A stretch of 64,000 nucleotides of DNA from a virus (IMGVR_UViG_3300031788_000007:14983-78982); one strand, 5' to 3'; counted from the stretch's first letter, positions 1 through 55,654 are shown. Notes: generated by a model from the sequence alone, not told the origin. Program-made: numbers and translations.

Positions 1-2
1 TG

Positions 3-1070
3 ATGAAACGAGTGCTGAACCCGAAGTGGATTGGGGAGATCAGTTACGACTTCGACGCTGGCCGGCCGAAGGTGATGGTCCGCGAAGTGGAGCCGACTGC
101 CGACTTGGAGTATCCAAAGCACCACAACCGCTTCAGTGTATGGAAGCGTGAGCGGCCAGGCGCGGTCTATGTCGTAGGGGTGGACGTGAGCCTTGGAAAC
201 GACGGCGGCGACTTCTCATCAGTCACGGTAATCGACATATCTCTAGACCTGCCGAAGGATGAAGTGGTGGCAGTGTGGCACGGCTATATTGATCCCGAGT
301 CGCTGGCTGATGTAACTCTAGCAATTTGCTGGATGTACAACGAGGCTCTGGCGGCCGTGGAAGTAAATTCGATGGGCATGGTGACGAACAACAAGTTGGT
401 CCGCCAGTACGAGTACGAGAACATCTATCGGTACAAGCACCTCGACAAACTGACTCATTGGATGACCGACATTATCGGCTTTTGGACGAATGACAAGACC
501 AAGCGGGCCTTGATGTCGAAGATGTCGAAGACGCTGATTGATGACTTGCTCAACATTCCAGACAAATTCACCGTCGACGAGTTTTATGATTTCACTGAAG
601 ATGGAGCCGAGGGAGACGGGGCTAGGGACGACCTTATGATGAGTCTTCACATCGCTCTTTACTGCGGCCACGAGGCTGAGTACCGCGAGATGCGGGAGGG
701 GACCAGCAAGCAGGAATCGACAAAGCAGCAGAATGAATTCAAAATCCTCGACCGATTCGGTACAATCATTCAGACGACGAACTCGCAGCATGAAGCGGAG
801 CGAGTGTCGAAGAAGAACATCGGAAGCAGTATCGTGAGGACGGCGGGGGCGACCGCTACAGTCAACCTGAAGGGATTGGGGGAAAGGAAAGTACCTAGCG
901 ATTTTCAGAATAGCGAGTACAGCCCTGTGTTTGACGGCAATGGGACGGCTTCGCGCATGTACGAGGACGGGATCGATCCGGAGCTGATAACTCCAGAGGC
1001 GATAGCCCAGTACGAGGCGGATCAGGCGGAACTGGACTCGGATGACGAGAATTCATGGCTTTATCAGTGA
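3..1070 (+). CDS. terL: Terminase large subunit, C-terminal RNase H-like nuclease domain plus ~130-aa extension (5' part probably lies before the window)
   Basis: Motifs YVVGVDVSLG, GDFSSVTV, AVEVNSMG, GFWT...KTK, RDDLMMS typical of TerL nuclease domains; lies upstream of portal. Confidence 0.9.
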   Translation: MKRVLNPKWIGEISYDFDAGRPKVMVREVEPTADLEYPKHHNRFSVWKRERPGAVYVVGVDVSLGNDGGDFSSVTVIDISLDLPKDEVVAVWHGYIDPESLADVTLAICWMYNEALAAVEVNSMGMVTNNKLVRQYEYENIYRYKHLDKLTHWMTDIIGFWTNDKTKRALMSKMSKTLIDDLLNIPDKFTVDEFYDFTEDGAEGDGARDDLMMSLHIALYCGHEAEYREMREGTSKQESTKQQNEFKILDRFGTIIQTTNSQHEAERVSKKNIGSSIVRTAGATATVNLKGLGERKVPSDFQNSEYSPVFDGNGTASRMYEDGIDPELITPEAIAQYEADQAELDSDDENSWLYQ

Positions 1071-9814: not shown

Positions 9815-9821
9815 GTAAGAC

Positions 9822-13991: not shown

Positions 13992-13994
13992 GAC

Positions 13995-15199: not shown

Positions 15200-15530
15200 C
15201 CCATTCATTTGTACCCGGCAAGCTGATACGTGGCAGCCAGCTTTATGCTGGCCGGTGGGTTCGCGGCACTCCTTACTCCGAAGAAGCAACGGGCCGCTTT
15301 TGCAGTGAAAGCGTACAGACATAGGCACTGATGACGACACGGGAATGGCGAAACCCAGGCAACGGGCAGGTGGTTGACTCCTGCATACGCGGCTACGCCC
15401 TGGTCCTACGGGATTGGGCGTGAGCCCTTTCGCATACTAAGCCTTCACCCGGTCGTCAAGACGCTTCAGCCACGTAGAGAATAGCGGCCACTTAGGAGCT
15501 TATCCCTAGGGAAGCCGCGCTCTGTCTAAG
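15200..15530 (+). ncRNA. Candidate structured RNA / long leader upstream of the HNH gene
   Basis: No convincing ORF; hairpins GCCAGC/GCTGGC, GCAGG/CCTGC, ACGCCC..cTACGg..GGGCGT, GCGGC/GCCGC. Confidence 0.4.
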
Positions 15531-15547
15531 AGGGAAAGAGAGGGAAG

Positions 15548-25936: not shown

Positions 25937-26515
25937 ATGGGCAGACGCAAGGGATTTGGCAAGACCAAAGCGAAGAAGCTGCCTCCGTTCGAGTTGATCG
26001 ACCACGAGGCAAAGCCGCAACTGGAACCCTACAAACTGTTGGCCGAGATCAGGAAGGCCCACCACCCGGACATCAAAGAGGCGAAGATTGTTCTCGCCTG
26101 GCAGAAGGGCATCAAGGCCGACAAAGACGGTCACGTAATGCTCGGGAAGTGCATCAAGATCGGCGACCTCCAGAAAGAGCTTGCCGACTGGGATTTTGTG
26201 ATTACCCTCAACTTCGAGGTGTGGCAGTCGAGCGAGTGGACCCGCGAGAAGAAGCTGGCCCTACTCGACCACGAGTTGATGCACGCTGATGAGTCGCTCG
26301 ACAAAGACGGTGAGCCCAAGGTAGACGCCAAAGGCCGGCGGCAGTGGCGGATTCGGAAGCATGACGTTGAGGAGTTTTCGGCCATCATCGAGCGCCACGG
26401 AATCTGGAAGCGCGACCTTCAGCGGTTCGCAGAAGCCATTATGAAGACGACACAGAAGACGCTGGAGTTCCCTCCCGTGGCGGCCGACGCCAGCGAGCAA
26501 GTGGTGGTGCAGTAG
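25937..26515 (+). CDS. Putative phage metallopeptidase
   Basis: ALLDHELMH and KHDVEEF..II.RHG. Confidence 0.85.
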   Translation: MGRRKGFGKTKAKKLPPFELIDHEAKPQLEPYKLLAEIRKAHHPDIKEAKIVLAWQKGIKADKDGHVMLGKCIKIGDLQKELADWDFVITLNFEVWQSSEWTREKKLALLDHELMHADESLDKDGEPKVDAKGRRQWRIRKHDVEEFSAIIERHGIWKRDLQRFAEAIMKTTQKTLEFPPVAADASEQVVVQ

Positions 26516-26558: not shown

Positions 26559-29500
26559 ATGGCAGACGCTCCGTACCAGACGCAAAACTTTTTGCTCAAG
26601 AGCCTTGGGGTAGTCGCCCGTCCGGCAGACGACGCGGTTGATCCTGGGCATTATTTGCAACTCGACAGCCTCGAAGAGATAGAAGAAAACTCTCTTGCAA
26701 GTCGCCTTGGAACCACGATCTTAAACAAGGTCGGCACAGCCGCTATGCCTATAGCGGGGTCTTTTCTTATAGGAAATCCGAACGTCCATAGCCTCCAGAA
26801 ACTCAGTTCTATTCCAGCGCAAGGCAACGTTTCTGGAGCGTGGCGGTATGCTTCCAGAGGTGCAAGGCTCTACCGTATAGCAGGATTGAATCCAGGCGCA
26901 TATACGCTCCTCTCCGCTTCTCTTAACGGCCAGCCGTGGGGAAGCGCGGTCTATTCTCCGTCTGTGACCGGCTACCCTTACCTTTACATTGCCGACTTGA
27001 ACGGAATGTTGAAGGATAACGGTTCTTTGGCTGCTCCACAGAAAGCGGGGATATTCCAGCCGCAGTATCCCGTACAGGCGCAAGCGCAGCCGTTATCGGA
27101 GATTGTTCTTGACTCCTTTGTGGGTTCCACTTATGCGACTTCCGGAGTGGGGGCATTTACAGCAAACACCACAGTCAACACTTCGACAAGTGGTTCTGCG
27201 ATCGCCGTGACCGGCTTGCAGGAAGTTGTGTTTGCAGCATCGTGGAGGGATTTGTTTCAATCTCTAATCTTCGATGTTGGAGGGGCAAATCAAGAAACAG
27301 TTCTAGTTTTGCAGGTTACAGATACGGGATTTGTCGCCAACTTCACCAAGACTCACCTTACCGGGGTGACCGTCAATGAAGCGGGTTGGACGGGAACGGT
27401 TGCAACCTCGACCACGGCGACGGTGAGCAAGACGTTTGTGGGAACGCCGATTGCGGCGTGGCCGACGACACTGGACCCAGCAGACTACATCGGGCTTTCA
27501 CTGTACGTTGGAGATCCGAACGCGATTCAGTCGATCACCCTTCAATTCAATACGGCGAACGGGGCCTACTTTTACAGGACAATCGGCCAGGGGCCGCTCC
27601 AGCAGGCATTGAACGCCCAGACCGACAGTTCTACGGCCGCCGAGACTGCGGTGTTGACCGACACTCTCGGGGTGTACACGCCGGCCTCGGGAGGAGTGAC
27701 TTCACTTAACACGGTCCCAGGTTGGACCCCATTTCTGGTGCAGTTGGAAAGTTTTTCGGGAGCAGGAGGAGCGGACTTCAATGATCCTGTGACGAACTGG
27801 CAGAACGTCACGGGCTACCAGATAACGATTGTGACTGGGGCCGGGATAGCGACCACCTCATTTCCCATCACGATCAAAGCGGGGTCTTTGCTGCTTCTTG
27901 GCGGGGCCGGTCCAGACACCTTTGCCGGAGTGGCCTACGATTATCTCGTCACCTACTTCAACATCAACGACTACACGGAATCCAACCCGTCGATGTCGAT
28001 GACGAATGTAAATCCTCCATCGAACACGAACTGGGTCTACCCGCGGCGCCAGCCTGTGCTGTTGACGATCACGAATGGAAGTTCCGACACTCAGATCACT
28101 CACCTTCGGATTTACCGCAGAGGAGGGACACTCGGAGACAACTACCGCAGGATCGACCAAGTGCCGTTGACGGCCGGCACAGGAGGGACTCAGACCTACC
28201 TCGACATCTGGAGTGACGCGGACATCCAGCAGGCGGATGTAGTCAGTTTCACCAATGATGTTCCAGTCACATCTCCGCTTCCCGTTCCGATGAATAACAC
28301 TCTCGGATCGGCTATCGTCACCACGAATGGGGTTGTGACGGTAGTCTTGACGAATCAATACGACACATTGACGGGTGGTTTCACTGTTCCCTTATGGGTC
28401 GGACAACAGGTGAATATCGGAAATGTGGTGGCCGCGAATTTCGAGACGGTGATCGTTCTGACTGTTACCCGTGTAGGAATTTTAGGGAGGTTCATTACAG
28501 GGTTCACAGCATTTGTGCAGAACACTCACGCATTGAATGAACCTCTTTCCGCTACAGCGAAGTATGGACAGCCGTTCAACATCATGGCCGTGGCGTTCGA
28601 TCAGGGGTGGTATGCAGGCGACTATCAGAATCCCTCATATCTGTACTGGACCCCCAAGGGGAATTTACAGGCGGTAAGCAGCGCATCCTACGAGCCGGTG
28701 AGCAGCCCAGGCGATGGCATTACAGCGATCGTGGGGACGGCGGCCAATCTATTTGTGAGCACATTGCAGAGATGGTGGTCGGTGGCGCCAGGCAGCAACG
28801 TCAACTCTAGCCCGACAATCTATCCGACCAATGTAGATCACGGTTGCGTAGGGCCGAGAGCGTGGACGCTGAAAGATGGAACGGTATTCTATCTTGGGTT
28901 AGATGGACTCCGCACGATGCGTGGAGGTGGAGGGGAGTACATCTCTGAAATCATCGAGTTCGTATGGCAGAACACAGGGCCGACGCCTATTCCGATTGCA
29001 GACCCAACGCAGTTTGCGACCGTGCAGGCGAGTTGGTGGAATCGGTGGGTGTTCTTCAGCTACATCGCCCTCGACGGGAACCGGCACAGAATCATTCTTG
29101 ATGTGGACAACAAGCGGTATCGCTGTGATGACCTCGATGCCCATAGCATGTTCTTAGAGGAGGATACCGGGACTCTGGTTTGGGGAGACTCTCAAGGGCT
29201 TATCCACCTCGACCGGCAGCTTGTCCAGTACGACGAAACGAACGTGGCCGGAACGGTGACGCAGAGCCCAATAGCGTTCACACTGCAAACACCATACGGG
29301 AACCAGGGGATGCCGGAGGTCCAGAAGCAGTACCAGGAGTTCACGCTGGACTGCAACACAAACGGAAATCCAGTTGGAGTGACTCTTTCGTTTGACGATG
29401 GAGAAACGACGGAATTCATTGGGACTGTGACGACGACCGTGAGGGAGAGAATCAATCTCAACATCAACAACGGGGAAGGTTTTCAAGCGTACAAGGCGTC

Positions 29501-29906
29501 CTTGCTGTTGACGGGATCGGGAATAACTCGCATCTACCTATTCCAAGCGAAGTTGAAGTACCTGCCGCTGGCGATGACGCGGCAGAGCCTTGACACGTAT
29601 TGGCTTCGGTTTGGAACCGACGAGAGCAAGATCTGCAAGCAGGCTTACTTCGAGTACAACGCGGGAGCGGTCATCAGCGGAGCGGTCTACTACGATGACA
29701 GCCCTACGGTCGGATTTCCGTTTACATTGCCACAGTATTCTGGAATCAGAAACCCGCTTCGGGTTCGGTTTCCTGCCGTAAAATTCAGGATGATGCGCTG
29801 TATTCTCACGAGCGCGGCAGACTTCCAAGTGTGGAATGAGAGTAACTTTGAAGTAAAGCCGCTGTGCCAGGGGAAGGGATACGCTAAGTTCCCGATGATG
29901 CCGTAA
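26559..29906 (+). CDS. Tail tubular protein B / DNA stabilisation protein (gp10-like) with large inserts
   Basis: 1115 aa, T/G/V-rich; HGCVGP..GTVFYLGLDG beta-propeller motif; position before ejection genes. Confidence 0.7.
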   Translation: MADAPYQTQNFLLKSLGVVARPADDAVDPGHYLQLDSLEEIEENSLASRLGTTILNKVGTAAMPIAGSFLIGNPNVHSLQKLSSIPAQGNVSGAWRYASRGARLYRIAGLNPGAYTLLSASLNGQPWGSAVYSPSVTGYPYLYIADLNGMLKDNGSLAAPQKAGIFQPQYPVQAQAQPLSEIVLDSFVGSTYATSGVGAFTANTTVNTSTSGSAIAVTGLQEVVFAASWRDLFQSLIFDVGGANQETVLVLQVTDTGFVANFTKTHLTGVTVNEAGWTGTVATSTTATVSKTFVGTPIAAWPTTLDPADYIGLSLYVGDPNAIQSITLQFNTANGAYFYRTIGQGPLQQALNAQTDSSTAAETAVLTDTLGVYTPASGGVTSLNTVPGWTPFLVQLESFSGAGGADFNDPVTNWQNVTGYQITIVTGAGIATTSFPITIKAGSLLLLGGAGPDTFAGVAYDYLVTYFNINDYTESNPSMSMTNVNPPSNTNWVYPRRQPVLLTITNGSSDTQITHLRIYRRGGTLGDNYRRIDQVPLTAGTGGTQTYLDIWSDADIQQADVVSFTNDVPVTSPLPVPMNNTLGSAIVTTNGVVTVVLTNQYDTLTGGFTVPLWVGQQVNIGNVVAANFETVIVLTVTRVGILGRFITGFTAFVQNTHALNEPLSATAKYGQPFNIMAVAFDQGWYAGDYQNPSYLYWTPKGNLQAVSSASYEPVSSPGDGITAIVGTAANLFVSTLQRWWSVAPGSNVNSSPTIYPTNVDHGCVGPRAWTLKDGTVFYLGLDGLRTMRGGGGEYISEIIEFVWQNTGPTPIPIADPTQFATVQASWWNRWVFFSYIALDGNRHRIILDVDNKRYRCDDLDAHSMFLEEDTGTLVWGDSQGLIHLDRQLVQYDETNVAGTVTQSPIAFTLQTPYGNQGMPEVQKQYQEFTLDCNTNGNPVGVTLSFDDGETTEFIGTVTTTVRERINLNINNGEGFQAYKASLLLTGSGITRIYLFQAKLKYLPLAMTRQSLDTYWLRFGTDESKICKQAYFEYNAGAVISGAVYYDDSPTVGFPFTLPQYSGIRNPLRVRFPAVKFRMMRCILTSAADFQVWNESNFEVKPLCQGKGYAKFPMMP

Positions 29907-29913
29907 ATGATTG

Positions 29914-29942
29914 TTGTGGATAGGGAGGTTCGGAGGTATACT
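29914..29942 (+). promoter_or_regulatory. Sigma70-like promoter for the endonuclease gene
   Basis: TTGTGG-17-TATACT; downstream hairpin GCTAC-TGGAG-GTAGC encloses the RBS. Confidence 0.55.
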
Positions 29943-29999
29943 GAGGGTGTCGGGAGTGCGAATCCCGGCCAAGCCTAATCGCTACTGGAGGTAGCAACC

Positions 30000-31142
30000 A
30001 TGACACCCTCAAACATCAATTTAACACCTTTCACAAAACTGTGCCGCAAGGGTCTTCACGAGTACGACGCAACCAAGAAGCTCTGTCCTGAATGTTCCCG
30101 AGCCACAAAAGCATCTTGTCAATTGAGGAACAGAGAAAGATATGTAAAAGCCAACAGCGATAGATACTATTCAAACTATGAACGAAGCAAGGCAGAACAT
30201 GCGGAATATAGGAAGAAGAATAGAGAGAAAATCAACGCAAGGCAACTAAAATCTTATCATGAGAACTTAGAGCTAAGGAGAAAACAATCAGCTAAGTATT
30301 GCCAGAAAAACAGGGAACTGGCGGTGTGGAGAGCGATGGTTCTGCGCTGCACGGATACTAAAAATAAACAATATGAGGATTACGGAGCCAGGGGAATCAA
30401 TGTTCACAGCGAATGGCTTGGAGAGAATGGGTATAAGGTTTTTCTCCGAGATATGGGGAAGAGACCAAGCGACAAACATACTCTCGACCGGAAGAATAAC
30501 GATTTAGGGTACACCCCAGACAACTGCCGGTGGGTTTTGCCTATAGTCCAAGGAAGGAACAAAAGAAACAATCACCTTATCGAGTACAACGGAAAAACTC
30601 AATGCTTGTCTGCGTGGGCAGGGGAAGTCGGTGTGGGTTCTTCTACTCTGGCAAGGAGAATAACCTTCTGGGGTATAGATAGAGCCATGACCCAGAAACC
30701 GCGAATTGTGAACCAAGGGTTTCACCGTCAACTATGCGACCGAGGCGCAGCATGGTTACGCGACGAGAAATCGTGCCATACAGTCTTTACCGAGTGCGCC
30801 CGTAACGTGGACGAAAAACCCGACGCAATTGGATGGAGTGGTGAATCTACGTACCTCGTTGAATGTAAGACAACGCGTACCAACTTCTTCGACGATGCCA
30901 AGAAAAAGATGAGGTTACACCCAGATAGAGGTGTCGGTTTATTCAGGTACTATCTAGTCCCAAAAGGCATGGTTCTACCAAAAGACGTTCCTGAAAAATG
31001 GGGACTCCTGTACGATGGAGATGTAGTGCAAATAGTCAAAGAGGCTGTTCGGTTCGATGTGAGAAATATCGAAGCAGAGACGCACATTCTTTCTCCGCGG
31101 CCTGGAAGGTGGAAAAATGGGGCAAACAAATCAACTCCCTAA
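30000..31142 (+). CDS. HNH homing endonuclease fused to a PD-(D/E)XK (MmcB-like) nuclease domain
   Basis: YGARGINV, TLDRKNNDLGYTPDNCRW; EKPDAIGW...LVECKTTR...WGLL; AT-rich. Confidence 0.8.
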   Translation: MTPSNINLTPFTKLCRKGLHEYDATKKLCPECSRATKASCQLRNRERYVKANSDRYYSNYERSKAEHAEYRKKNREKINARQLKSYHENLELRRKQSAKYCQKNRELAVWRAMVLRCTDTKNKQYEDYGARGINVHSEWLGENGYKVFLRDMGKRPSDKHTLDRKNNDLGYTPDNCRWVLPIVQGRNKRNNHLIEYNGKTQCLSAWAGEVGVGSSTLARRITFWGIDRAMTQKPRIVNQGFHRQLCDRGAAWLRDEKSCHTVFTECARNVDEKPDAIGWSGESTYLVECKTTRTNFFDDAKKKMRLHPDRGVGLFRYYLVPKGMVLPKDVPEKWGLLYDGDVVQIVKEAVRFDVRNIEAETHILSPRPGRWKNGANKSTP

Positions 31143-31533
31143 ACCGACATTCATTGGAATTACGCAGGATCATCAACGATTTCTTAGCCAACTGACCGAC
31201 GCGACGAACACCTTGCTTGGGTACAACGGCACGATCCCGATGGTCAACACGCTCGATCTCAACAACAACCCCATTCAAAACGTAGCCGCTCCGGTAGCGC
31301 CCACAGATGCCTTGAACCTCGGGACGGCGGAAGCTAAATACGCTCCATCAGTGACCGGCCCTCAGTTGGATGTGGGAGGGTCGAACTCGTTGAAGGGGGT
31401 GACGTACCTCTACACTTGGAAGAACAAGGGTTTGAGCGTAACGATCACGACGGCGAAGCTGACGGGCGGGGGGACGAACGGGAGTATGACCTTCACTGCG
31501 GGCCTCTTGACCGCGCAGGTCCAAGCCACTTAG
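31117..31533 (+). CDS. Small tail-associated protein
   Basis: LDLNNNPIQNVAAPVAPTDA, TAKLT..GTNGSMTF motifs. Confidence 0.65.
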   Translation: MGQTNQLPKPTFIGITQDHQRFLSQLTDATNTLLGYNGTIPMVNTLDLNNNPIQNVAAPVAPTDALNLGTAEAKYAPSVTGPQLDVGGSNSLKGVTYLYTWKNKGLSVTITTAKLTGGGTNGSMTFTAGLLTAQVQAT

Positions 31534-31553
31534 GAGTATGCTGTTGTGGGGAG

Positions 31554-31566
31554 TCCAAAATTTGGA
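31554..31566. repeat. Dispersed palindrome copy 7 (extends to AGTCCAAAATTTGGACT)
   Basis: Intergenic, directly before the GAGGAGG RBS of 31580. Confidence 0.97.
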
Positions 31567-31579
31567 CTGAGGAGGGGAT

Positions 31580-32383
31580 ATGGGGACAGCAACATCATTG
31601 ACTCTGGATATGCTCAAGGTGATGACGCCAGATAAAGGTCTGGTGTCGGTCGGCGAGGGGCCTTGGGGAGAGATTTACGCCGATTACCTGAAGAACGCCG
31701 GAAACAGGAACATTGTTTGGAAGCGTCGGCAATTGGGTATGACGACGTTCTCTCTGGCGCGAGGGTTCTTGAAGGCCGCCGAAGGGAAGACCTGCATCAT
31801 CGTTGCCCATCAGTTTGCTGGAGCGGATTACCTTTGGGATATGGTGGAGACATTCATCGCTAACCTTCCTGCTCCACTGCCGATCAAGTGGAAGAATAGT
31901 CAGAAGCGCTATTTTGGATTGGATGGGCGCTTCCCAGCGCAATTCCAAATTGGTCACTTGATGATGGCTGGATTTGGATTAGGAATGAATGTAGACTTTG
32001 TTCACTTGCAAGAGTTTGCATGGTGGCCGAGGCGCGATCAGGAGAGGGTGTGGCAGGCTTTGGCTCCATGTCTAAAACCAGACGCCGAGGTAATCATTGA
32101 ATCCGCTCCAAAAGAAGAAGATAACGGACTGTTTGACGAAATATGGAAAGGAGCACCCGCATACGGATTCACCCGTCACTTCTTCCCGTGGTGGAGGGAT
32201 TCTCGTTACGTTGCCGAGCCCGTCGATCCTAAGAGTCTGAAGAAGGCCGAGAAGGAATTGATTGACGATCATGGATTGACGCTGGAGCAAATCGGCTGGA
32301 GGCGCAAGCAGTGTGACAGATTCATGGAACTCTACGGAAGTGAGAAGATGTTCAAGATGGAGTACAGTGAATCGGTCCAGTAA
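31580..32383 (+). CDS. Stand-alone terminase ATPase-domain homolog
   Basis: RNIVWKRRQLGMTT (Walker A region), IIVAH, VHLQEFAWW (Walker B), VIIESAP, FFPWW, LTLEQIGWRR, FKMEY. Confidence 0.85.
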   Translation: MGTATSLTLDMLKVMTPDKGLVSVGEGPWGEIYADYLKNAGNRNIVWKRRQLGMTTFSLARGFLKAAEGKTCIIVAHQFAGADYLWDMVETFIANLPAPLPIKWKNSQKRYFGLDGRFPAQFQIGHLMMAGFGLGMNVDFVHLQEFAWWPRRDQERVWQALAPCLKPDAEVIIESAPKEEDNGLFDEIWKGAPAYGFTRHFFPWWRDSRYVAEPVDPKSLKKAEKELIDDHGLTLEQIGWRRKQCDRFMELYGSEKMFKMEYSESVQ

Positions 32384-32399
32384 GAAGAGGGGGTAAGGG

Positions 32400-33002
32400 A
32401 TGTACGGATGGGGATGGTACGGAACGAAAAGTCTTCAAGTGGTTCCTGTAATGAAGGGGACGCCATGCTTTCTCGACGGCATGATGAGCCACTTGTATTA
32501 CGAGACGAAGCGGCTTGGTAAAATCCGGCAAACATTCTGTGGAGACGAGTTCTCGCATGACCACTTCATAGCCTACTTCGAGGCTCTGAAAACCGCTCAA
32601 GTTCTCTGCCGGGTGACCGATGAGGGGAAGTTGATTCCGGTCGGATACAGTTGGGTGAGCAATCCGCGAGGGGTAGACGGAGGCCGGGCCGCGCAGTGCG
32701 GGTTCTGCTTCTTGGAGGACGGCAGTTCGGGGAAGTCGAGCGCAAGGGACTTGGCGAGATTGGCTGTAGCGTATGCTTTCGAGGATTTGCGGATTGACAC
32801 AATCCACGGCGTCCAGGTCATCGACAACATCGCGGCCAGAAACTTCTCCATGCGGCTCGGCTTCAAGCCGGTAGCGGTGGTCCCTGATTACCATGCCATC
32901 GACGGCAAGTTGGTAGCGGCTCAGGTGATGATGCTCAGGAAAGCCGATTTTTGGCCTGGGTTTGTGGCGTGGAAAGAAAAGCAGCCGAAGGTGGGCGAGT
33001 GA
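32400..33002 (+). CDS. GNAT acetyltransferase-like protein (podovirus virion region)
   Basis: AYAFEDL.I.TIHG...DNIAARNFSMRLGF. Confidence 0.75.
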   Translation: MYGWGWYGTKSLQVVPVMKGTPCFLDGMMSHLYYETKRLGKIRQTFCGDEFSHDHFIAYFEALKTAQVLCRVTDEGKLIPVGYSWVSNPRGVDGGRAAQCGFCFLEDGSSGKSSARDLARLAVAYAFEDLRIDTIHGVQVIDNIAARNFSMRLGFKPVAVVPDYHAIDGKLVAAQVMMLRKADFWPGFVAWKEKQPKVGE

Positions 33003-33187
33003 ACACGATCGAAGAGAATCTTGACGAGAAGACGAAGGCCGCCTTGAAGGCGTTTCGAGAAAGTCTTTGCGCAGCGGCGAAGAAGGCGTATTCTGATTCC
33101 AGCATCGGAGCGAAGGGCGACTTCTCACCTACTCGGATTGAACATCCAAACGGAGCCAGCCCTTCCGATGTTTCTGACAATCATTAA
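32999..33187 (+). CDS. Small hypothetical protein
   Basis: GTGA overlap with the GNAT stop. Confidence 0.45.
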   Translation: MNTIEENLDEKTKAALKAFRESLCAAAKKAYSDSSIGAKGDFSPTRIEHPNGASPSDVSDNH

Positions 33188-33240
33188 AATCCAGTAGAAA
33201 ACTTCGCACAGGTGTCGTACCCTCCCTGTAGGAGTGCCGC

Positions 33241-34017
33241 GTGTCGAAACCTGTAAGTAGTGCCGGTGCAGAAGTGGCGCAGGACAACCTCGCTAATCAA
33301 ATGGCCGCTACGGGGGCCTCAATGACGGCGGAGAACCAGCAACTCTTTGGAATGGCTCTCCCCGGCCTCCAGCAAGCGGAGACGTACTACGGGACGCTGG
33401 CCTCTGGCGATCCGAACGCTTTAGCAAGGGCGAACGCTCCAGCGATTCAGGCGCTCACGAAGTCTACAGACTCAGCCAAGAAAAACATTATGCAAGACAA
33501 TCCGAGAGGAGGGGAACGGAACCTCGCCCTTGAGGAAGCGGATTTGTCGAAGGGCGCCCAGATCGGGCAACTGGAGACGGGATCGTATCTTTCATCCTTC
33601 GGTTCACTGGCGAGTCTGGGTGGTCAGAACGTCGGGCAGGGGACATCGGCAGCTTCGAGCGGGTTGCAGGGAATGAACGCGGCGGCGAACCAGTACGGAA
33701 ACATTCAGCAGATCAATGCAGCGAACAAGGCGCAGACGATGGGCACGGTTTCTGATTTTGCCGGGATGGCGATGGAAGGTGCGGCGATGTGCTGGGTGGC
33801 GGCTGAGTTGTTCGGTGGCTGGACTGACCGTAGGACGCACATGGTCCGGTACTGGCTCAAGAACGTGTACTCGAAGACTCTCATCGGGTCGATATTCTGC
33901 CGGCTGTATCGGCGGTACGGGGAGTGGACTGCCAAGCAGGTACGGACTTACAGGCCGGTTCGGTTCGCGGTCAAGCCGATCTTTGACCACTTTTTGATGG
34001 AATCTCAAACAATATGA
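33241..34017 (+). CDS. Ejection/pilot protein with C-terminal CFI-box-CTERM-like domain
   Basis: A/G/Q/N-rich N-terminus; CWVAAELFG...GSIFCRLYRRYGEWTA. Confidence 0.7.
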   Translation: MSKPVSSAGAEVAQDNLANQMAATGASMTAENQQLFGMALPGLQQAETYYGTLASGDPNALARANAPAIQALTKSTDSAKKNIMQDNPRGGERNLALEEADLSKGAQIGQLETGSYLSSFGSLASLGGQNVGQGTSAASSGLQGMNAAANQYGNIQQINAANKAQTMGTVSDFAGMAMEGAAMCWVAAELFGGWTDRRTHMVRYWLKNVYSKTLIGSIFCRLYRRYGEWTAKQVRTYRPVRFAVKPIFDHFLMESQTI

Positions 34018-34024
34018 GGAGGAA

Positions 34025-34783
34025 GTGATGGGTAAAGAGAAATACGAACCGATCAACACCGCAAGAGAAGATCAAAAGACTATCACCTTTGTGTGCTCTT
34101 GCTGCGGTTCCCTCGTCAGGTCGGACTACACAGACGCACACGACAGGAAATGCGGGACGCCTGCGGAAAAGGGGATGGATGTGGTGTCAAATATGACTAC
34201 CAAAGTTCTCGAATTAGTTGATGAGAGGAGAAAATCGGCTCCATCTCCGATACAAATATGGAGATTCCCTGAACCTGGGAAGTCCTATATTTTAGCGGCT
34301 GATCCCTGTACGGGGAGCGAGGGAGGAGACAATGCGGCGATTGAAGTGATCGACGCAGAGACGGGGGAGCAATGCGCCGAGTTTGCCGCAGTGGTTTCCC
34401 CGGAAGACTTAGCTCCCATAATCCTTGATTTGGCGCAAAGGTACAACAGTGCGGAAGTGGCAGTCGAGGTGAACAGCGTCGGGCTGATTACAAACAACAT
34501 CCTGATACGCCAATACGAGAACGTCTATCGCTATAAGCGCCTAGATAGGGTCAACCATACCGTGACCGATCTTATCGGTTGGTGGACGGACGTAAAAAAA
34601 ACGAAGGCACTGATGGAATCAGCATTCCGCGTAAGCGTTGAGAGGAATCCAAAACTGCTTAACAGCGCGGGCCTGATTGCCGAAATCCTTGCCTATGACG
34701 AGAATGGGTATGAGAAGAATGATCGGTTCTCGGCGATGATGATTGCTCAAGCGGTTCGTGCCGAAAGAATGGTTACAGTCTAG
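34025..34783 (+). CDS. Stand-alone terminase nuclease-domain paralog with N-terminal Zn finger
   Basis: YILAADPCTG, GDNAAIEVID, AVEVNSVGLITNN..IRQYENVYRYKRLD..TDLIGWWTD closely match 3..1070; CSCC...H..C N-terminus. Confidence 0.9.
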   Translation: MMGKEKYEPINTAREDQKTITFVCSCCGSLVRSDYTDAHDRKCGTPAEKGMDVVSNMTTKVLELVDERRKSAPSPIQIWRFPEPGKSYILAADPCTGSEGGDNAAIEVIDAETGEQCAEFAAVVSPEDLAPIILDLAQRYNSAEVAVEVNSVGLITNNILIRQYENVYRYKRLDRVNHTVTDLIGWWTDVKKTKALMESAFRVSVERNPKLLNSAGLIAEILAYDENGYEKNDRFSAMMIAQAVRAERMVTV

Positions 34784-34796
34784 TCCAAATTTTGGA
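34784..34796. repeat. Dispersed palindrome copy 8
   Basis: Directly follows TAG 34781-34783. Confidence 0.97.
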
Positions 34797-34807
34797 CCGA
34801 GGGAATC

Positions 34808-36514
34808 ATGGCTGTTGACACACCTCAAATCTCGATAGACCCGTATCGCTCTCAGGTTCCCCTCGTCCAGATCCCTCAACAGGACTTGCAGGGACCGCCT
34901 CCGCAGGGAGCCATCTACAGCAAGACTGGCGGGATTGCGACCATTGCCGATGGAGCAATGAAGGGGCTGTTGAAGGGCCTCCAAATGAAGGAGGAGAAGA
35001 AATACAAGACGGCCGAGGCGGTGATGAACGCCCAGGACGCTGGAATCTCAGCAGCAAAGAAGAACTACGAAGACCTCTTGACGACCGAAGGGGCGTGGAC
35101 GGTCAGTAGTGATGGAGTGGCGAAGACGCCGAACTTGAAGACCCAGGCAGCTTATGCGGCCTGGCAGACGGCAGTGAACGCAGCCGCAGCGCAGCGGCAA
35201 GCATTCGCTGTTCCCGAGAAGACGGCGAAGCCGAAGAAGGGCGAGAAAAAAGACAAGACGGCAGCCGATGGAGCGCCGGCTGCGCCGGGGTTTGGCGGCG
35301 CCCTGAAGCAATTCTTCGAGAGGAACCCGCACGTCCTACCGGAACTGACAATCACAGCATGGAAGGCCGGTCAGAACACACCCTACGGGCAGATGTCGCC
35401 GGAAGCCTTACAGGCTCAGAGGCAGAACACCTCCGCTCAACGGCAGGATGCGACCGAGCAGATTCAACTTCAAGGAGCGCAGCGGACGGCGAACGCTCAG
35501 AAGGTCTACGACCAGTATTCAGGGTTGAGTGCCGAGGAGTTGGCGAAACTGCCGAGGGAGACGCAGCAAGCCTTCCAAGCAGCCAAGAACGTCCTTGTTC
35601 CAATTCCAAGGGCGTCGTCTACAGAGCGTGAATACACATCTCCAGACGGAAAGCAGAGGGAGTGGTATATCCCAGGCACAGAACCGCAGGGGTGGAACGC
35701 TACGGCCAATCCAAGTTCGGGGACATTGAAGGTTGGGACGGAGCCGGAATTCACTTCTCAGGCATTGAAGGGGTACGGCTACACCGCTGACACTGCACCG
35801 CCTGCTTTGTTGAAGTACCTGCATGACTCGTGGGCCTACAAAGCGGCGCAAACAACCTCTGGCACATCCGAGCACATGGAGACGGACCCGAAGACCGGGG
35901 AGTTGGTTGCGGTCAAGACGGGCAGTTCGACGACTCGCGGGGCAGCGGCGCCAAAGCCGCCGGCCGGATTCTCTCCTCTCGGAGAGAATGGGCTACCACA
36001 AGAATCAGCCGCAGCGAAGCCAGCGGGGGACACCGCCTCATCGGCGGCCACGCCGAAGACTGGGAAGATGAGCAAGCCTCCAGCCGCGCCGGGCGCAGGA
36101 AAAGGAACGATGACGGCCGCTCCACTGCCGCCGGGAGTGCGTGACACCGGAATCAAATCACTAGCCGGAGTGCAGTTCGACGTTCACTCTGAGGAGTCAA
36201 CGGCGAAGTCGTATGATACGGCGACCCAAGCGTACAACAATCAAATCAACAAGAATCGGTCAAAGGCCGCGGACGCGAAGAGCTTGGAGGCATTGAACGC
36301 TACAGCCCGAGAGGACTACGAGAAGGCGAAGGCGAGGATCATCATGTCTAGGGCTGCACACATCAAGACGACCGGCGGTGATCCGTGGAAGGTAGTGAAG
36401 CACGGCGGTAAGGATGTTCAATTTTCTCAAGGCCCAGATGGTGTTTACGGAACGATGGATGGAATAAATTGGGTGAACATCAATACGGGAATGCCGTATT
36501 CTGGACAGCAGTAA
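34808..36514 (+). CDS. Internal virion / DNA ejection protein
   Basis: 568 aa, A/P/T/Q-rich, directly before the giant gene. Confidence 0.65.
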   Translation: MAVDTPQISIDPYRSQVPLVQIPQQDLQGPPPQGAIYSKTGGIATIADGAMKGLLKGLQMKEEKKYKTAEAVMNAQDAGISAAKKNYEDLLTTEGAWTVSSDGVAKTPNLKTQAAYAAWQTAVNAAAAQRQAFAVPEKTAKPKKGEKKDKTAADGAPAAPGFGGALKQFFERNPHVLPELTITAWKAGQNTPYGQMSPEALQAQRQNTSAQRQDATEQIQLQGAQRTANAQKVYDQYSGLSAEELAKLPRETQQAFQAAKNVLVPIPRASSTEREYTSPDGKQREWYIPGTEPQGWNATANPSSGTLKVGTEPEFTSQALKGYGYTADTAPPALLKYLHDSWAYKAAQTTSGTSEHMETDPKTGELVAVKTGSSTTRGAAAPKPPAGFSPLGENGLPQESAAAKPAGDTASSAATPKTGKMSKPPAAPGAGKGTMTAAPLPPGVRDTGIKSLAGVQFDVHSEESTAKSYDTATQAYNNQINKNRSKAADAKSLEALNATAREDYEKAKARIIMSRAAHIKTTGGDPWKVVKHGGKDVQFSQGPDGVYGTMDGINWVNINTGMPYSGQQ

Positions 36515-36534
36515 GTTGATAGAGAGGGAGTCCA

Positions 36535-39500
36535 GTGGCAGTTCTCGACCAGACCGAGGCTCAAATTCCTGTCGGGTTGACCCCAATCCCACTCGGGCAA
36601 GCGCCATCTAGTGAGGCAAAAATCCCTGCCGGGCTTACTCCTATCCCACTCGGTAGTCAGCAATCGAGTCCAAATTTTGGAGTGAAGTCGCAGACTCAGG
36701 CGACTCACGCCGTTACCCCTCCAGTAGATGTAAAGAGTTCTATCCCTGCCGGATTGACGCCCATTCCTAAGGAAGATTCTCACGTTGACGCTTTCATGGC
36801 GGGAATCAGGAAGCCAGCGGCTCTCCGTCAGCAGGTCTACGACTACACAGTGGGGTCTGGTTATAACGCAGACCAAGGACGCCAGCGCCAGAATGAGTAC
36901 GACTACGCCATCAAGAACGGGATGAACCCACAGCGAGCGCAGGAGTTCGCCCTGGGGATGCAGTTCGAGGGCGGGACACCGAAGTACAATCTCACAGACC
37001 AAGAGAAGTCCGATCTCTACGGGAAGGCGAAACAGGCCGCAGAGGGATTTAAGAGCGGCCAGCAGAAAACGATTGAAAGTCATTTCCTTGGAGAATCATT
37101 ATTGCCGGGGGATGACGAAACATATCGTCAAAACATCGACCCCGACGAATACGCAAGAAACTATGTCAAGGGGTATACCTACGCTCGGTCTCAGGGATGG
37201 GATGAAGGGAAGGCGCAAGAGTACGCCACGTCTGATGCCGCATCGCAGTGGATGACTCGGGCTGGAGAGTGGATTGATCCGAAGTGGCACTCCGTCAAAA
37301 GCGCGATTCTCAACGTCATTCCCGGCATCTCGAAGCCGGAGGAGAGAGCGGAGAACCCGTTCTTTGCGACGAATCAGGGGTATCGAGAGAATCAGTTCCA
37401 CGTCTACCATGAGGCTGCTTGGCTGGATGAGCACGTAGGCAAGGTAGCTGGCAGCGTAGACGCTGGGCTCGGAAACGTGGTCAACGGCTTTTCTACTCCC
37501 GGCATGGCAGCATTGATGGTTGCCAGCGAAGGGCAGGGACTTCTTGCCCGTGGCGGTATAGGGGCGGCCGAAGAAGTCGAGACTGCGAATCTGGCTACAC
37601 GTGCACTTGGAAGGGTGGCGCGGGCCGGGGGAAGACAACTTGGCCGGTCGGCAGCGGCAAGCGAGGAGATTGATTCAGCGCAGGCTCTCAGGGCGGCAGA
37701 GAACGCAGAAAAGGCCATCCGAGCAATTCGTGACGCGAGACTTCCTGTGTCGGCACAGAAGGTGGCGAGAACGTTCAATAAACTCGTCACGGTAGGCTTT
37801 ACGGCTCAGATGGCGCAAGGTTCCGCTGAACAACTGGAGCAGGCCGCTAAAACCGCGTTCCCCGGAGAAGGGAAGGACGGCGACAGTGCGCTGGCTGTCG
37901 AGTATGCGGTTGAGGGTCTTGTCAGCGGGTTGATGGCCGTGCAGGGTGGAAACCATCTTCGGCATGAGCATCTTCTCACGTCCGATCTCAACTCAAAGAC
38001 CGCCGAGATGTACGGGCCGCAAAAGCTCTCGGATGTTGGCGGCTTACATGAGGGTCCGAGACAGAACGCCGCGACCAAATTTGGCGACCTCGACCCGTAT
38101 CGACAGGCCGCAGTCATTCAGCGGTTGATTGAAGATGATCCGAAGTATAAAGCCGCAGAGGATGCAAGCGAGAAGGAGCAAAAGCGGCTTGCGAAGAAGA
38201 TAGCCTACCGCTACAACACAGCATTGCAGCAGGCGTGGAATCCCAACGCGGTAGATCGCATGGTGCGGGTGATTGACAACCATCGCGCAGCGAACGAATG
38301 GTACGGCGCAAGACAGAAGGCGGAGGATGAGGCTCGGAAGCACTACCTCGACCAGATCACGAAGCTCATTGACCTCCACAAGCAAGACAAAGCCGACGAA
38401 GAGGAACTTGTTAAGGCTGAGGCAGAGCGCCGGGCCGCGGCAAGGGAAGGCCGTCCGGTACGGAAGACTGTAGACGCGCAGAAGAGGGAAGAGAGTCGCA
38501 AGGTAACTCTGACGAACGCGGCGCAGATTGCCGAGCATCGGCAGGGGGTAGTAGATGCCCGCGATGTAGCGGATAAGGAAACGGCCGAGCAGGAGAGATC
38601 GGAGGCTCAGGACTCCACCACGAACTCTCAAAAAGAATGGGACGATCGGTATGCTCGCGTCTACGGTATGCACGCCAGGAATAACCCTGATTGGTCTATG
38701 CCTCGTCTCCACGGTGAGACGCTAGATATTGTCGGAGAAAGGCCCAAGGAGGATAAACAGGGAGAGTTACGCCACCCGGACGAGGTGACCGACGACCAAG
38801 GGTATGTGTCGTACCGTAGTCAGGTGTTTGGAGGGGAAGAGCACCACTTCGGCGTAGCTCAGACTCCAGACGGGAAGTGGGGAGTCTATCGGAAGACGCC
38901 GGATGGGATTGAATACCTGGGAGCCGGGGGAATCTTTGACGGCCAGCCGCAAGAAAGCTACCTTGCGCCCAATGAAGAGACGGCCAAGGCTCTCGCTCAG
39001 ATCACTTCCCTTCGGGTCAATGCCGATTACGCTCTTGAGGAGCATGGAACCACGCCGGAGCGGGAAGCGGAACGGAAGCAACTCCGCGACTTAGAGCACA
39101 GTCTGGTAGATGGCACGATCACGGGAGAGCAAGCACGCAAAGCCGCCGGACTGCCGGAGGAAGCGCAAGAAGCGCAGGCCAAGGAAAAGGCTAATCACGA
39201 GATCGAAGCCGCCAGAGCAGGAGCATTGAACGGTCCCCTTCACGGCAGAACGAAAGCTCAATACGAAGACGAGTTCCTTGCTGGGCTGGAAGAGGCGGGA
39301 TGGGAGCCGGAGACGATCGAAGCGATGATCGACACCCTCCCTCTTCAACTTCGGATGGAGGCTGAGAACAATCTCCACTACGTCGGCCGTTCGGGAGACT
39401 GGATTGCCTCGAAGAAGGGTGTGACCTGGGTTCTCGACTCGAAGGGCATGTTGCAGCCGGACGATGGGATGAGTGCGCCGATCCCACTGATGAAGAATGG

Positions 39501-52315: not shown

Positions 52316-52329
52316 TGGAGGTGGAGAGT

Positions 52330-55641: not shown

Positions 55642-55654
55642 CGAGGAGGAAATC

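What the first reader, a model, noticed from the sequence alone, without database searches (positions are those of the whole stretch)
31580..34783. Second, split terminase: separate ATPase-only and nuclease-only genes among ejection-protein genes (candidate decoys for terminase-sensing immunity)
Seen: 31580..32383 carries the TerL ATPase motifs (KRRQLGMTT, HLQEFAWW, IIESAP, FFPWW) and stops where the domain ends (FKMEY). Its motif III reads ESAP rather than the usual EST. 34025..34783 is a clear paralog of the nuclease domain at 3..1070 (AVEVNSVGLITNNILIRQYENVYRYKRLD vs AVEVNSMGMVTNNKLVRQYEYENIYRYKHLD), fused to a new Zn-finger N-terminus. Both are intact ORFs with their own RBS, about 30 kb from terL, separated by the GNAT and pilot genes. 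The block is bracketed by palindrome copies 7 and 8. Established: Avs1-3 STAND NTPases detect large terminase, and Avs3 contacts both ATPase and nuclease sites. Inference: isolated domains could titrate such sensors without triggering them, poison packaging of competing phages or satellites, or form a regulatory two-piece terminase.
Basis: partly seen in the sequence, partly recalled or inferred. Interest (0 to 1): 0.88.

Follow-up and report, generated by a model that had tools for sequence, protein, structure and literature searches.

The report
Extra single-domain terminase genes in phage
Besides a normal full-length DNA-packaging enzyme (large terminase), this peat phage keeps two extra, separately conserved genes that each encode only one half of such an enzyme; they are real and under selection, but they are two independent accessory genes rather than one terminase broken in two, and their job is still unknown.

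Summary
Window 31580-32383 encodes a 267-aa protein with the TerL ATPase fold. Window 34028-34783 encodes a 251-aa protein with the TerL nuclease fold behind a CxxC...HxxxC knuckle.

Both genes are open, have strong ribosome-binding sites, keep their catalytic residues and show purifying selection.

The "split terminase" reading is not supported.
- The ATPase-only protein belongs to an old clade made only of stand-alone 258-291-aa ATPases. That clade sits next to small TerLs, not next to the resident TerL.
- The nuclease-only protein is a younger paralog of the resident-type TerL nuclease domain.
- A complete relative (G003) and a 91%-complete one (G002) carry the nuclease-only gene but no ATPase-only gene.
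- Both genes sit at different positions in different relatives. Some peat contigs lack the nuclease gene at this site.

The decoy idea (Avs sensors) remains untested speculation.

My best reading is two independently exapted late accessory genes. One is a free-standing RuvC/RNase H-type endonuclease. The other is an auxiliary P-loop ATPase. Function is inferred only. I found no description of such genes in the papers searched. Interest is moderate.

The parts
1..1070 (+). 3' part (last 355 codons) of the resident full-length terL; the 720-aa gene starts 1092 nt upstream of the window (G000 13890-16052)
   Evidence: single 720-aa open frame with Walker A KARQMGGST, HLDE, ISTP and the nuclease D-E-D
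30000..31142 (+). HNH endonuclease gene (380 aa), an insertion relative to relative G005
   Evidence: PHROG HNH endonuclease E 2e-43; absent between the 1115-aa and fibre-like genes in L031
31117..31533 (+). 138-aa gene sharing only its N-terminal ~94 aa with 310-338-aa fibre-like genes of relatives
31551..31573 (.). copy of the genome-wide palindrome (A/G)GTCCAAAWTTTGGA(C/G)T just upstream of the ATPase-only gene's ribosome-binding site
   Evidence: the motif is also present in relatives
31580..32383 (+). stand-alone TerL-type ATPase-domain gene (267 aa); K48, R50, Q51, G53, T55/T56, H142, E145 kept; Q144 in place of the Walker B Asp; S175-A176 in place of S-T
32400..33002 (+). GNAT acetyltransferase gene (200 aa), part of the conserved backbone
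   Evidence: Pfam Acetyltransf_3 E 2e-7; orthologs in G003 and G005
33241..34017 (+). 258-aa gene of unknown function, part of the conserved backbone
   Evidence: 59-79% identical orthologs in G003, G005 and L093; no family hit
34028..34783 (+). stand-alone TerL-type nuclease-domain gene (251 aa from ATG 34028; GTG 34025 is the alternative start); metal-binding D92, E147, D232 kept
34094..34156 (+). codons for the C23-x2-C26 ... H39-x3-C43 zinc-knuckle-like N-terminal extension, found only in the long-form orthologs (P0012, P0013, P0014)
   Evidence: modelled as three short strands plus a helix at pLDDT 59-79
34781..34803 (.). palindrome copy overlapping the stop codon of the nuclease-only gene; also the right edge of the 770-nt stretch that some peat contigs lack
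34808..36514 (+). 568-aa Ala/Gln/Pro-rich backbone gene
   Evidence: orthologs in G003 and L093
36535..48021 (+). 3828-aa giant protein with a Strawberry-notch-type SF2 helicase region (residues ~2447-2932), resembling virion-packaged polyvalent proteins
   Evidence: Pfam AAA_34 E 2e-8, ResIII, Helicase_C_4; the polyvalent-protein concept is from PMC5512222

Best explanation
The phage has a complete 720-aa TerL. In addition it carries two independently acquired and independently maintained single-domain derivatives of large terminases. Both are expressed from the late/structural gene region as separate proteins.

(a) Nuclease-only protein. It is a paralog of the resident-type TerL nuclease domain and arose before the sampled phages of this group (about 80-100 kb genomes) diverged. 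It keeps the RuvC/RNase H-type metal-binding triad. In this sublineage it has gained a small Cys2-His-Cys knuckle. I read it as a free-standing Mg2+-dependent DNA endonuclease acting in trans late in infection. Its most likely task is trimming or debranching the recombination-rich replication products (the phage has RecT plus exonucleases) so that they can be packaged.

(b) ATPase-only protein. It belongs to a much older clade of stand-alone TerL-type P-loop ATPases. It keeps the K-x-R-Q-x-G-x-T P-loop and the catalytic Glu. I read it as an optional auxiliary nucleotide-binding/DNA-binding ATPase. It is present only in some relatives and is therefore not an obligate partner of the nuclease.

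Shown: homology, folds, catalytic residues, purifying selection, independent distribution, variable position.

Inferred: enzymatic activity, late timing, and the DNA-maturation role.
For: Identity of the parts.

A complete resident TerL exists.

Selection:
- ATPase-only orthologs are 263-268 aa at 50-87% identity, with 72 invariant columns.
- Nuclease-only orthologs are 195-253 aa at 51-80% identity.
- dN/dS is 0.12-0.13 for the nuclease gene. For the ATPase gene dN is 0.35 with dS saturated. These values are comparable to portal, capsid and neighbouring genes.
- The nuclease-only gene is 62-65% identical between phages whose TerL is 48% and portal 52% identical.

Catalytic residues:
- D92/E147/D232 align with T4 gp17 D401/E458 and the third Asp, and are kept in nearly all family members.
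- K48/R50/Q51/E145 are invariant across 35 sequences.

Different origins:
- The ATPase-only family lies in a clade of 17 stand-alone proteins (SH-aLRT 98), next to small TerLs and far from the resident TerL.
- Its best full-length matches are small TerLs at E 1e-34, against E 5e-13 for the own TerL.
- The nuclease-only family is closest to 717-742-aa resident-type TerLs. It shares a ~10-residue insertion with them that small TerLs lack.

Independent distribution: G003 (complete, terminal repeats) and G002 (91% complete) have TerL plus nuclease-only but no ATPase-only, by single-sequence and profile searches.

Variable positions:
- The nuclease-only gene lies between TerL and portal in G002, before GNAT in G003, and after the 258-aa gene here and in L093.
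- The ATPase-only gene lies 6 kb further upstream in G004/G005.
- Peat contigs join 34009 to 34780, that is, they lack exactly the nuclease gene.

Recombination context: RecT-like annealing protein and exonucleases are present. No recognised junction resolvase was found among about 30 ORFs scanned.
Against: - No biochemical or expression data exist. The only RNA-library contigs cover the last 320 nt of the nuclease gene and part of the GNAT/258-aa region, and they may be DNA carry-over.
- AU tests do not formally reject a tree in which the ATPase-only clade and the resident TerLs are sisters (p 0.25 and 0.15). An ancient duplication of a resident-type TerL therefore cannot be excluded.
- The Walker B Asp is replaced (Q144). 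The C-motif Thr is Ala in this phage, so the ATPase may hydrolyse poorly.
- One close ortholog of the nuclease (P0013) has Tyr at the first catalytic Asp, which hints that catalysis may not be essential.
- The resident TerL keeps its own nuclease triad, so there is no obvious need for a second cutter.
- The debranching role is by analogy only (RuvC fold, T4 endonuclease VII logic).
- The record is 81% complete, so an ordinary resolvase may simply lie in the missing part.
Confidence: 0.5

Rival explanations
1. Counter-defence decoys. The isolated TerL domains bind TerL-sensing STAND (Avs1-3-type) receptors without allowing activation, or soak them up, and so protect the real terminase from detection.
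For: - Avs1-3 recognise the TerL fold by direct binding (PMC13581612). KpAvs2 is predicted to bind the TerL ATPase domain (PMC11564622).
- The PhiV-1 terminase chain of the Avs3 complex is among the top structural matches of the ATPase model (8dgc_E).
- The genes sit at variable positions like accessory or anti-defence genes.
- The same genome also carries a 99-aa ORF that copies 35 residues of the capsid protein N-arm behind a Tat-like signal. This phage therefore keeps fragments of several hallmark proteins.
- One ortholog lacks the first catalytic Asp.
Against: - There is no direct evidence of any kind. The host and its defence repertoire are unknown (peat metagenome).
- PADLOC models give no hit. 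No paper found describes a terminase-fragment decoy.
- A bare TerL domain could just as well trigger fold-sensing receptors.
- The ATPase-only clade is old and widespread, and only 25% identical to the resident TerL.
- Strict conservation of catalytic residues fits an enzyme at least as well.
Confidence: 0.12
2. A functional two-piece second terminase. In phages that have both genes, the ATPase-only and nuclease-only proteins associate non-covalently, perhaps through the zinc knuckle. The pair would then act as an alternative packaging/cutting enzyme, or would interfere with the packaging of competitors or satellites.
For: - Both genes lie in one palindrome-bracketed block here.
- The knuckle-bearing long form of the nuclease is found in the two genomes known or inferred to carry the ATPase-only gene. 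These are this record and, judged from equal contig lengths, the 92,377-bp contig holding P0006 and P0014.
- The short form is found in G002 and G003, which lack the ATPase gene.
- TerLs split into two CDS have been reported as oddities (PMC10773633).
Against: - The two genes have different phylogenetic affinities and ages.
- The nuclease gene is kept without the ATPase gene in a complete genome.
- Contigs of 94, 92, 85 and 99 kb carry ATPase-only genes, yet no nuclease-only cluster on record comes from contigs of those lengths. This is an indirect argument.
- The two genes are not adjacent in any genome seen.
Confidence: 0.13
3. Selfish mobile cassette. The nuclease-only gene is a free-standing, homing-endonuclease-like element derived from a TerL nuclease domain that spreads among related phages. 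The ATPase-only gene is an unrelated hitch-hiking 'moron'.
For: - The gene sits at three different insertion points in relatives.
- There is a precise presence/absence difference of 770 nt, ending at the palindrome.
- It is better conserved than TerL and portal between the same phages.
- The catalytic triad is kept, and a possible DNA-binding knuckle has been added.
- The genome tolerates several HNH insertions.
Against: - The gene is present in every sufficiently complete relative examined (G000, G002, G003), unlike typical sporadic homing genes.
- Its tree groups G002 with G003 apart from this phage, as the TerL tree does. That fits vertical descent.
- No target site is known. No precedent for a TerL-derived homing nuclease was found.
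Confidence: 0.12
4. Virion-packaged effectors. The two proteins are loaded into the head with the giant polyvalent-type protein, the GNAT and the metallopeptidase, and are injected to act on host or competitor DNA early in infection.
For: In this genome the genes lie within a module that has a PhageMetallopep protein, a GNAT and a 3828-aa protein with a Strawberry-notch helicase. These are domain types described for injected polyvalent proteins (PMC5512222).
Against: The context is not conserved. In G002 the nuclease gene lies between terL and the portal gene. No packaging signal and no proteomic data are available.
Confidence: 0.08
5. Decaying remnants of a duplicated or captured terminase gene, with no function.
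For: The Walker B Asp and the C-motif Thr are changed in the ATPase-only protein. Neither protein reaches a Pfam gathering score.
Against: - Open frames of constant length persist across 50-87% and 51-80% identical orthologs.
- dN/dS is far below 1.
- There are 72 and 48 invariant columns.
- Both genes have strong ribosome-binding sites.
- The Walker B change is shared with full-length small TerLs.
Confidence: 0.02

Closest known systems
Large terminase (TerL) of tailed phages, Terminase_6N/6C type (T4 gp17, Sf6 gp2, P74-26 and G20c TerL)
   Same: Each protein has the fold, motif order and catalytic residues of one TerL domain. The best structural matches are the T4 gp17 ATPase domain and the RB49/T4 gp17 nuclease domain.
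   Different: - They are two separate polypeptides encoded 1.6 kb apart, in addition to a complete TerL.
- The ATPase part lacks the Walker B Asp.
- The nuclease part carries an extra zinc-knuckle-like N-terminus.
- Neither reaches the Pfam threshold.
phi29-type packaging ATPase (gp16; Phi-28 gp11)
   Same: It is a packaging-type ASCE ATPase without a working nuclease domain. Phi-28 gp11 appears among the structural matches (E 4e-5).
   Different: In phi29-like phages it is the only packaging ATPase. Here a full TerL is present. The match is much weaker than to T4 gp17.
TerL annotated as two CDS (Parabacteroides phage phiPDS1)
   Same: The ATPase and nuclease domains lie in separate reading frames (PMC10773633).
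   Different: There the two CDS are adjacent, they are the only terminase, and the authors suspected a recoding or assembly issue. Here the genes are non-adjacent, of different ancestry, and additional to a full TerL.
RuvC / RNase H-fold junction resolvases
   Same: Same core fold and acidic metal-binding residues. RuvC chains appear as weaker structural matches (E 3e-3).
   Different: There is no sequence similarity to RuvC, and no evidence of dimerisation or junction specificity. The resolvase role is only an inference.
Free-standing homing endonuclease genes of phages
   Same: A small nuclease gene at variable intergenic positions, with a presence/absence difference at a precise site.
   Different: The nuclease fold is TerL/RNase H, not HNH, GIY-YIG or LAGLIDADG. 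The gene is present in all reasonably complete relatives examined.

Membership tests
TerL ATPase domain (Terminase_6N-type ASCE P-loop) | TerL ATPase fold, including the lid subdomain | tested here: met
   AlphaFold model pLDDT 90. Foldseek top hits are the T4 gp17 ATPase domain (E 5.5e-10, TMq 0.68), PhiV-1 TerL and P74-26 TerL ATPase.
TerL ATPase domain (Terminase_6N-type ASCE P-loop) | P-loop K-x-R-Q-x-G-x-(S/T), equivalent to T4 SRQLGKT | tested here: met
   KRRQLGMTT. K48, R50 and Q51 are invariant and G53/T56 nearly invariant in 35 sequences. They align to T4 R162/Q163/G165.
TerL ATPase domain (Terminase_6N-type ASCE P-loop) | Walker B Asp followed by the catalytic Glu (T4 D255-E256) | tested here: inconclusive
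   E145 is invariant. The Asp position is Q here and Q/H/N/G/S/A in relatives. It is also Ser in the sister full-length small TerLs, so its loss is not specific to the stand-alone form.
TerL ATPase domain (Terminase_6N-type ASCE P-loop) | C-motif (S/T)-T coupling motif (T4 TTT 285-287) | tested here: not met
   S175-A176 in this phage. Orthologs have S-T or S-S.
TerL ATPase domain (Terminase_6N-type ASCE P-loop) | Pfam or PHROG family score above threshold | tested here: not met
   No Pfam or PHROG hit for the 267-aa protein. Homology rests on BLAST/HMMER to TerLs.
Full-length large terminase | ATPase and nuclease domains in one polypeptide | tested here: not met
   The ATPase-only protein ends 5 residues after the FKMEY motif. 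The nuclease-only gene starts 1.6 kb downstream, after two unrelated genes. No fused close relative was found among 1.8 billion representatives.
TerL nuclease domain (Terminase_6C, RNase H/RuvC fold) | TerL nuclease fold | tested here: met
   Model pLDDT 86 (>90 over residues 80-245). Top hits are the RB49 and T4 gp17 nuclease domains (E 3e-10, TMt 0.73-0.77) and the G20c TerL nuclease.
TerL nuclease domain (Terminase_6C, RNase H/RuvC fold) | Three acidic metal-binding residues (T4 D401, E458, D542) | tested here: met
   D92, E147 and D232. E147 is invariant; D92 and D232 are kept in at least 90% of 36 sequences. Exceptions are P0013 (Tyr, Glu) and P0023 (Asn).
TerL nuclease domain (Terminase_6C, RNase H/RuvC fold) | Pfam gathering score | tested here: not met
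   Terminase_6C scores 19.3 bits against a cut-off of 22.6 (E 0.0012). PHROG terminase phrog_24361 gives E 2e-4.
Two-piece (split) terminase | The two parts share ancestry, co-occur and are needed together | tested here: not met
   Different tree positions. The nuclease gene occurs without the ATPase gene in G002 and G003. Positions differ among relatives.
Anti-defence decoy of TerL-sensing Avs receptors | Binds the sensor domain and blocks activation by TerL | not testable with these tools
   No host and no Avs partner are known. Literature leads only.
Free-standing homing endonuclease | Sporadic presence at intergenic sites among close relatives | tested here: inconclusive
   Position varies and one site shows presence/absence. 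But the gene is present somewhere in all three reasonably complete genomes.
Free-standing homing endonuclease | Site-specific cleavage of cassette-free alleles | not testable with these tools
   Needs biochemistry.

The most novel reading that the evidence does not exclude
The phage deploys free-standing fragments of its hallmark proteins as competitive ligands that blunt fold-sensing STAND/Avs-type immunity. The fragments are a TerL-type ATPase domain, a TerL-type nuclease domain and, elsewhere in the genome, a capsid N-arm copy. This would be a counter-defence principle not yet described.
Probability: 0.1. Interest if true: 0.9.

Novelty: new variant of a known kind. Interest (0 to 1): 0.55.

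Why it matters
Large terminase is treated as a single-copy, two-domain hallmark of tailed phages. It is used as a phylogenetic marker, and bacterial Avs receptors use it as an infection signal.

Here each TerL domain also exists as a conserved stand-alone accessory protein next to a complete TerL. The ATPase-only form is an old clade of at least eleven 50%-identity clusters. This has three consequences.

1. Annotation and marker-gene pipelines can mistake these proteins for fragments or for a second terminase.
2. The TerL domains have been exapted for other, unknown tasks.
3. If those tasks turn out to be DNA debranching, competitor interference or evasion of terminase-sensing immunity, these proteins offer compact, testable tools and a new angle on packaging and phage-host conflict.

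Tried and rejected
The 85-99-kb contigs that carry the closest ATPase-only orthologs (P0002, P0003, P0006, P0008/P0190) could not be fetched. Co-occurrence there rests only on matching contig lengths.
- Complex prediction of the ATPase-only protein with the nuclease-only protein gave 'no answer' (score 0.00). It counts neither for nor against binding.
- AU tests did not reject the ATPase-only clade being sister to the resident TerLs (p 0.25 and 0.15). The 'different origin' claim therefore rests on the ML topology, branch supports and pairwise scores.
- dS is saturated in most pairwise comparisons. dN/dS values are upper-bound-like estimates only.
- Strain-level variants in peat runs were too few for pN/pS.
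- RNA evidence: one metatranscriptome holds contigs over 32947-33411 and 34463-34885 only. There was no cover over the ATPase-only gene. This is no evidence of absence, and DNA carry-over cannot be excluded.
- I considered whether the nuclease-only protein replaces a dead nuclease in the resident TerL. I rejected this because resident-clade TerLs keep D, E and D.
- I considered whether GNAT plus the 258-aa gene had been inserted into a once-continuous second terL. I rejected this because GNAT-258aa-568aa is the conserved backbone in G003, G005 and L093, and the TerL-like genes are the variable insertions.
- The promoter scan found no sigma-70-like sites in 29500-37000, and terminator-like sites were at chance level.
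- PADLOC gave no hits.
- Literature searches for extra TerL paralogs or terminase decoys found nothing comparable.
- Frameshifted or split small TerLs in loci L050-L053 look like breaks inside the ATPase domain on short old contigs. I did not pursue them.

Full report
**Where the window lies**

The window is bases 14983-78982 of a 78,982-bp IMG/VR virus record that is estimated to be 81% complete. Near-identical DNA occurs in more than 20 peat and permafrost metagenome runs.

**The resident terminase**

The ORF at window 3..1070 is not a whole gene. In the full record a single 720-aa frame (G000 13890-16052) runs into the window.
- It has a complete ATPase domain: KARQMGGST, AHLDELPFW, ISTP, MFNQEY.
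- It has a nuclease domain with the three acidic residues.

It does not lack one, so that refutation condition is not met.

**The ATPase-only gene (31580-32383, 267 aa)**

- It has an ATG start 4 nt after GAGGAGG. A copy of the genome-wide palindrome lies just upstream.
- It aligns with the own TerL ATPase domain at 25% identity (E 5e-13). It aligns with annotated TerLs of cultured phages at 26-28%. It gets no Pfam or PHROG hit.
- The AlphaFold model (pLDDT 90.4) matches the T4 gp17 ATPase domain best (E 5.5e-10). The next matches are the PhiV-1 terminase of the Avs3 complex and the P74-26 TerL ATPase.
- A profile alignment to T4 gp17 maps R50/Q51/G53 onto R162/Q163/G165, Q144 onto the Walker B D255, E145 onto the catalytic E256, and S175-A176 onto the TTT C-motif.
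- K48, R50 and E145 are invariant in a 35-sequence alignment that includes full TerLs.
- The Walker B Asp position varies within the stand-alone family (Q, H, N, G, S, A). It is Ser in the sister full-length small TerLs. Its loss therefore predates the stand-alone state and does not by itself show inactivity.
- The Thr-to-Ala change in the C-motif is peculiar to this phage.

**The nuclease-only gene (34028-34783, 251 aa)**

- ATG 34028 sits 5 nt after GAGGAGG and is the likely start.
- The protein is 36% identical to the own TerL nuclease domain (E 6e-33). It scores just below threshold on Terminase_6C. It matches a PHROG terminase family.
- The model (pLDDT above 90 over the core) matches the RB49/T4 gp17 and G20c TerL nuclease domains best.
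- D92, E147 and D232 correspond to the T4 metal ligands and are kept in almost all relatives. The exceptions are P0013 (Tyr at the first Asp, Glu at the third) and P0023 (Asn at the third).
- The first ~50 residues carry C23-x2-C26...H39-x3-C43. This is conserved in the three long-form orthologs (P0012, P0013, P0014) and absent from the ~200-aa forms.

**Both genes are under selection**

- ATPase-only orthologs of 263-268 aa occur at 87, 75, 69, 56, 56 and 50% identity, on contigs of up to 94 kb.
- Nuclease-only orthologs of 195-253 aa occur at 51-80% identity.
- Codon comparisons give dN/dS of 0.12-0.13 for the nuclease gene. For the ATPase gene dN is 0.35 with dS saturated. These are in the range of portal, capsid and neighbouring genes.
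- Between this phage and G002 the nuclease-only protein is 65% identical, whereas TerL is 48% and portal 52%.

Neutral decay is therefore excluded.

**They are not two halves of one gene**

1. Affinity.
   - In a nuclease-domain tree the nuclease-only family (SH-aLRT 98) and the resident-clade TerLs (98) are nearest neighbours. Small TerLs lie further off.
   - The best longer database hits of the nuclease-only protein are 717-721-aa TerLs.
   - The family shares a ~10-residue insertion (RLDRLxxxxTD) with the resident-clade TerLs only.
   - The ATPase-only family instead groups with small 460-570-aa TerLs (SH-aLRT 91). Its pairwise scores there are E 1e-34, against E 5e-13 to the own TerL.
2. 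Age.
   - I scored the ATPase-only protein with HMMER against all 1.8 billion protein-cluster representatives. The four hits with E at or below 1e-30 are all 261-269 aa. No close fused form exists.
   - In a tree of representatives, 17 stand-alone proteins of 258-291 aa form one clade (SH-aLRT 98). These are this family plus ten further 50%-identity clusters. All end a few residues after the (F/Y)-x-E motif. Several well-supported branches separate the clade from the resident TerLs.
   - Caveat: AU tests do not reject sisterhood with the resident TerLs (p 0.25 and 0.15).
3. Distribution.
   - Profile searches find TerL plus nuclease-only, but no ATPase-only, in G003 (97 kb, terminal repeats, 100% complete) and G002 (91% complete).
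   - The fragment G005 has the ATPase-only gene.
4. Position.
   - The backbone fibre-like gene / GNAT / 258-aa / 568-705-aa / giant gene is conserved.
   - The nuclease-only gene lies between the terL neighbour and the portal gene in G002, before GNAT in G003, and after the 258-aa gene here and in L093.
   - The ATPase-only gene lies before the metallopeptidase and 1115-aa genes in G004/G005. Here it lies between the fibre-like gene and GNAT.
   - Peat contigs of relatives join 34009 directly to 34780. They lack exactly the nuclease gene, and the right edge of the gap is the palindrome.

**Context**

In this genome the genes sit in a late region with several notable neighbours:
- a PhageMetallopep protein (25937-26515);
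- a GNAT acetyltransferase;
- a 3828-aa protein with a Strawberry-notch-type helicase region. These domain types are typical of virion-delivered polyvalent proteins (PMC5512222);
- an HNH endonuclease gene (30000-31142), which is an insertion relative to G005.

The replication region encodes a RecT-like annealing protein, exonucleases and a DnaB-type helicase. No recognised junction resolvase was found among about 30 ORFs scanned.

**Interpretation**

The firm part is this: there are two independently exapted, independently distributed, selected single-domain TerL derivatives next to a complete TerL.

The mechanistic part is inference.
- The nuclease-only protein most likely acts as a free-standing RuvC/RNase H-type endonuclease in late DNA processing.
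- The ATPase-only protein most likely acts as an optional auxiliary P-loop protein.

The rivals cannot be excluded. They are an Avs decoy, a two-piece enzyme joined through the zinc knuckle, a selfish nuclease cassette, and injected effectors.
- For the decoy idea the only new circumstantial point is a third hallmark fragment in the same genome.
- For the two-piece idea the only point is that the knuckle form of the nuclease is seen in the two genomes that have, or are inferred to have, the ATPase-only gene.

**Novelty**

Searches of the paper library found no description of conserved extra ATPase-only or nuclease-only TerL paralogs, and none of terminase-fragment decoys. The nearest report is a phage whose only TerL is annotated as two adjacent CDS (PMC10773633). 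I rate the finding a new variant of a known kind. It is of moderate interest now and of high interest if the counter-defence reading proves true.

Noticed in passing
window 1612-63203 (e.g. 1945-1967, 9799-9821, 31551-31573, 34781-34803); also L025, L027, L030, L031, L093: The palindrome TCCAAAWTTTGGA occurs in at least 15 copies, mostly just upstream of ribosome-binding sites of + strand genes. The same 13-mer is present in related phages G002, G003, G004/G005 and L093. It is therefore a clade-wide regulatory or recombination motif. It also forms the right edge of the nuclease-gene indel.
   Followed up: partly
G000 9363-9662 (L099:9363-9662, upstream of the window): A 99-aa ORF with a twin-arginine-like signal (SRRGFLRGVGAAAVLVAAG) is followed by 35 residues that are 63% identical to residues 45-79 of the major capsid protein (BLASTP E 9e-15).
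   Followed up: partly
window 1042-1614: A 190-aa ORF overlaps the end of terL. It has another Tat-like signal (SRRKFFGVGATVMAAAAIPAVAA) and a C-terminal CxxC...CPNC motif. Function unknown.
   Followed up: no
window 36535-48021 and 25937-26515: A giant 3828-aa protein carries AAA_34/ResIII/Helicase_C_4 (Strawberry-notch-type helicase) at residues ~2447-2932. A separate PhageMetallopep protein is encoded nearby. Together with the GNAT they resemble a P1 Dar-like / polyvalent-protein injection module.
   Followed up: partly
window 30000-31142: A 380-aa HNH endonuclease with a second C-terminal domain (phrog_631) is inserted between the 1115-aa gene and the fibre-like gene. It is absent at that place in G005.
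   Followed up: partly
window 31117-31533: The fibre-like gene is only 138 aa here, against 310-338 aa in G003, G004/G005 and L094. Only the N-terminal ~94 residues are shared. This suggests a swapped or truncated distal part right next to the ATPase-only insertion.
   Followed up: no
window 34009-34780 (runs X7, X10): Contigs from peat and permafrost runs join the end of the 258-aa gene directly to the palindrome before the 568-aa gene. Related strains therefore lack the nuclease-only gene at this site.
   Followed up: partly
L093:819-1586 (protein P0013): The closest nuclease-only ortholog (79% identity) has Tyr instead of the first catalytic Asp and Glu instead of the third. This is either a catalytically dead variant or an assembly error.
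   Followed up: no
L050:183-1732, L052, L053: In small TerLs on short IMG/VR contigs of one metagenome, the ATPase and nuclease parts lie in different frames, with the break inside the ATPase domain. This is probably a frameshift or sequencing error.
   Followed up: no
window 52312-53790, 54976-56413, 58685-60109: The region encodes a RecT-like annealing protein fused to a long C-terminal extension (492 aa), two exonucleases and a DnaB-type helicase. This points to recombination-dependent replication.
   Followed up: no
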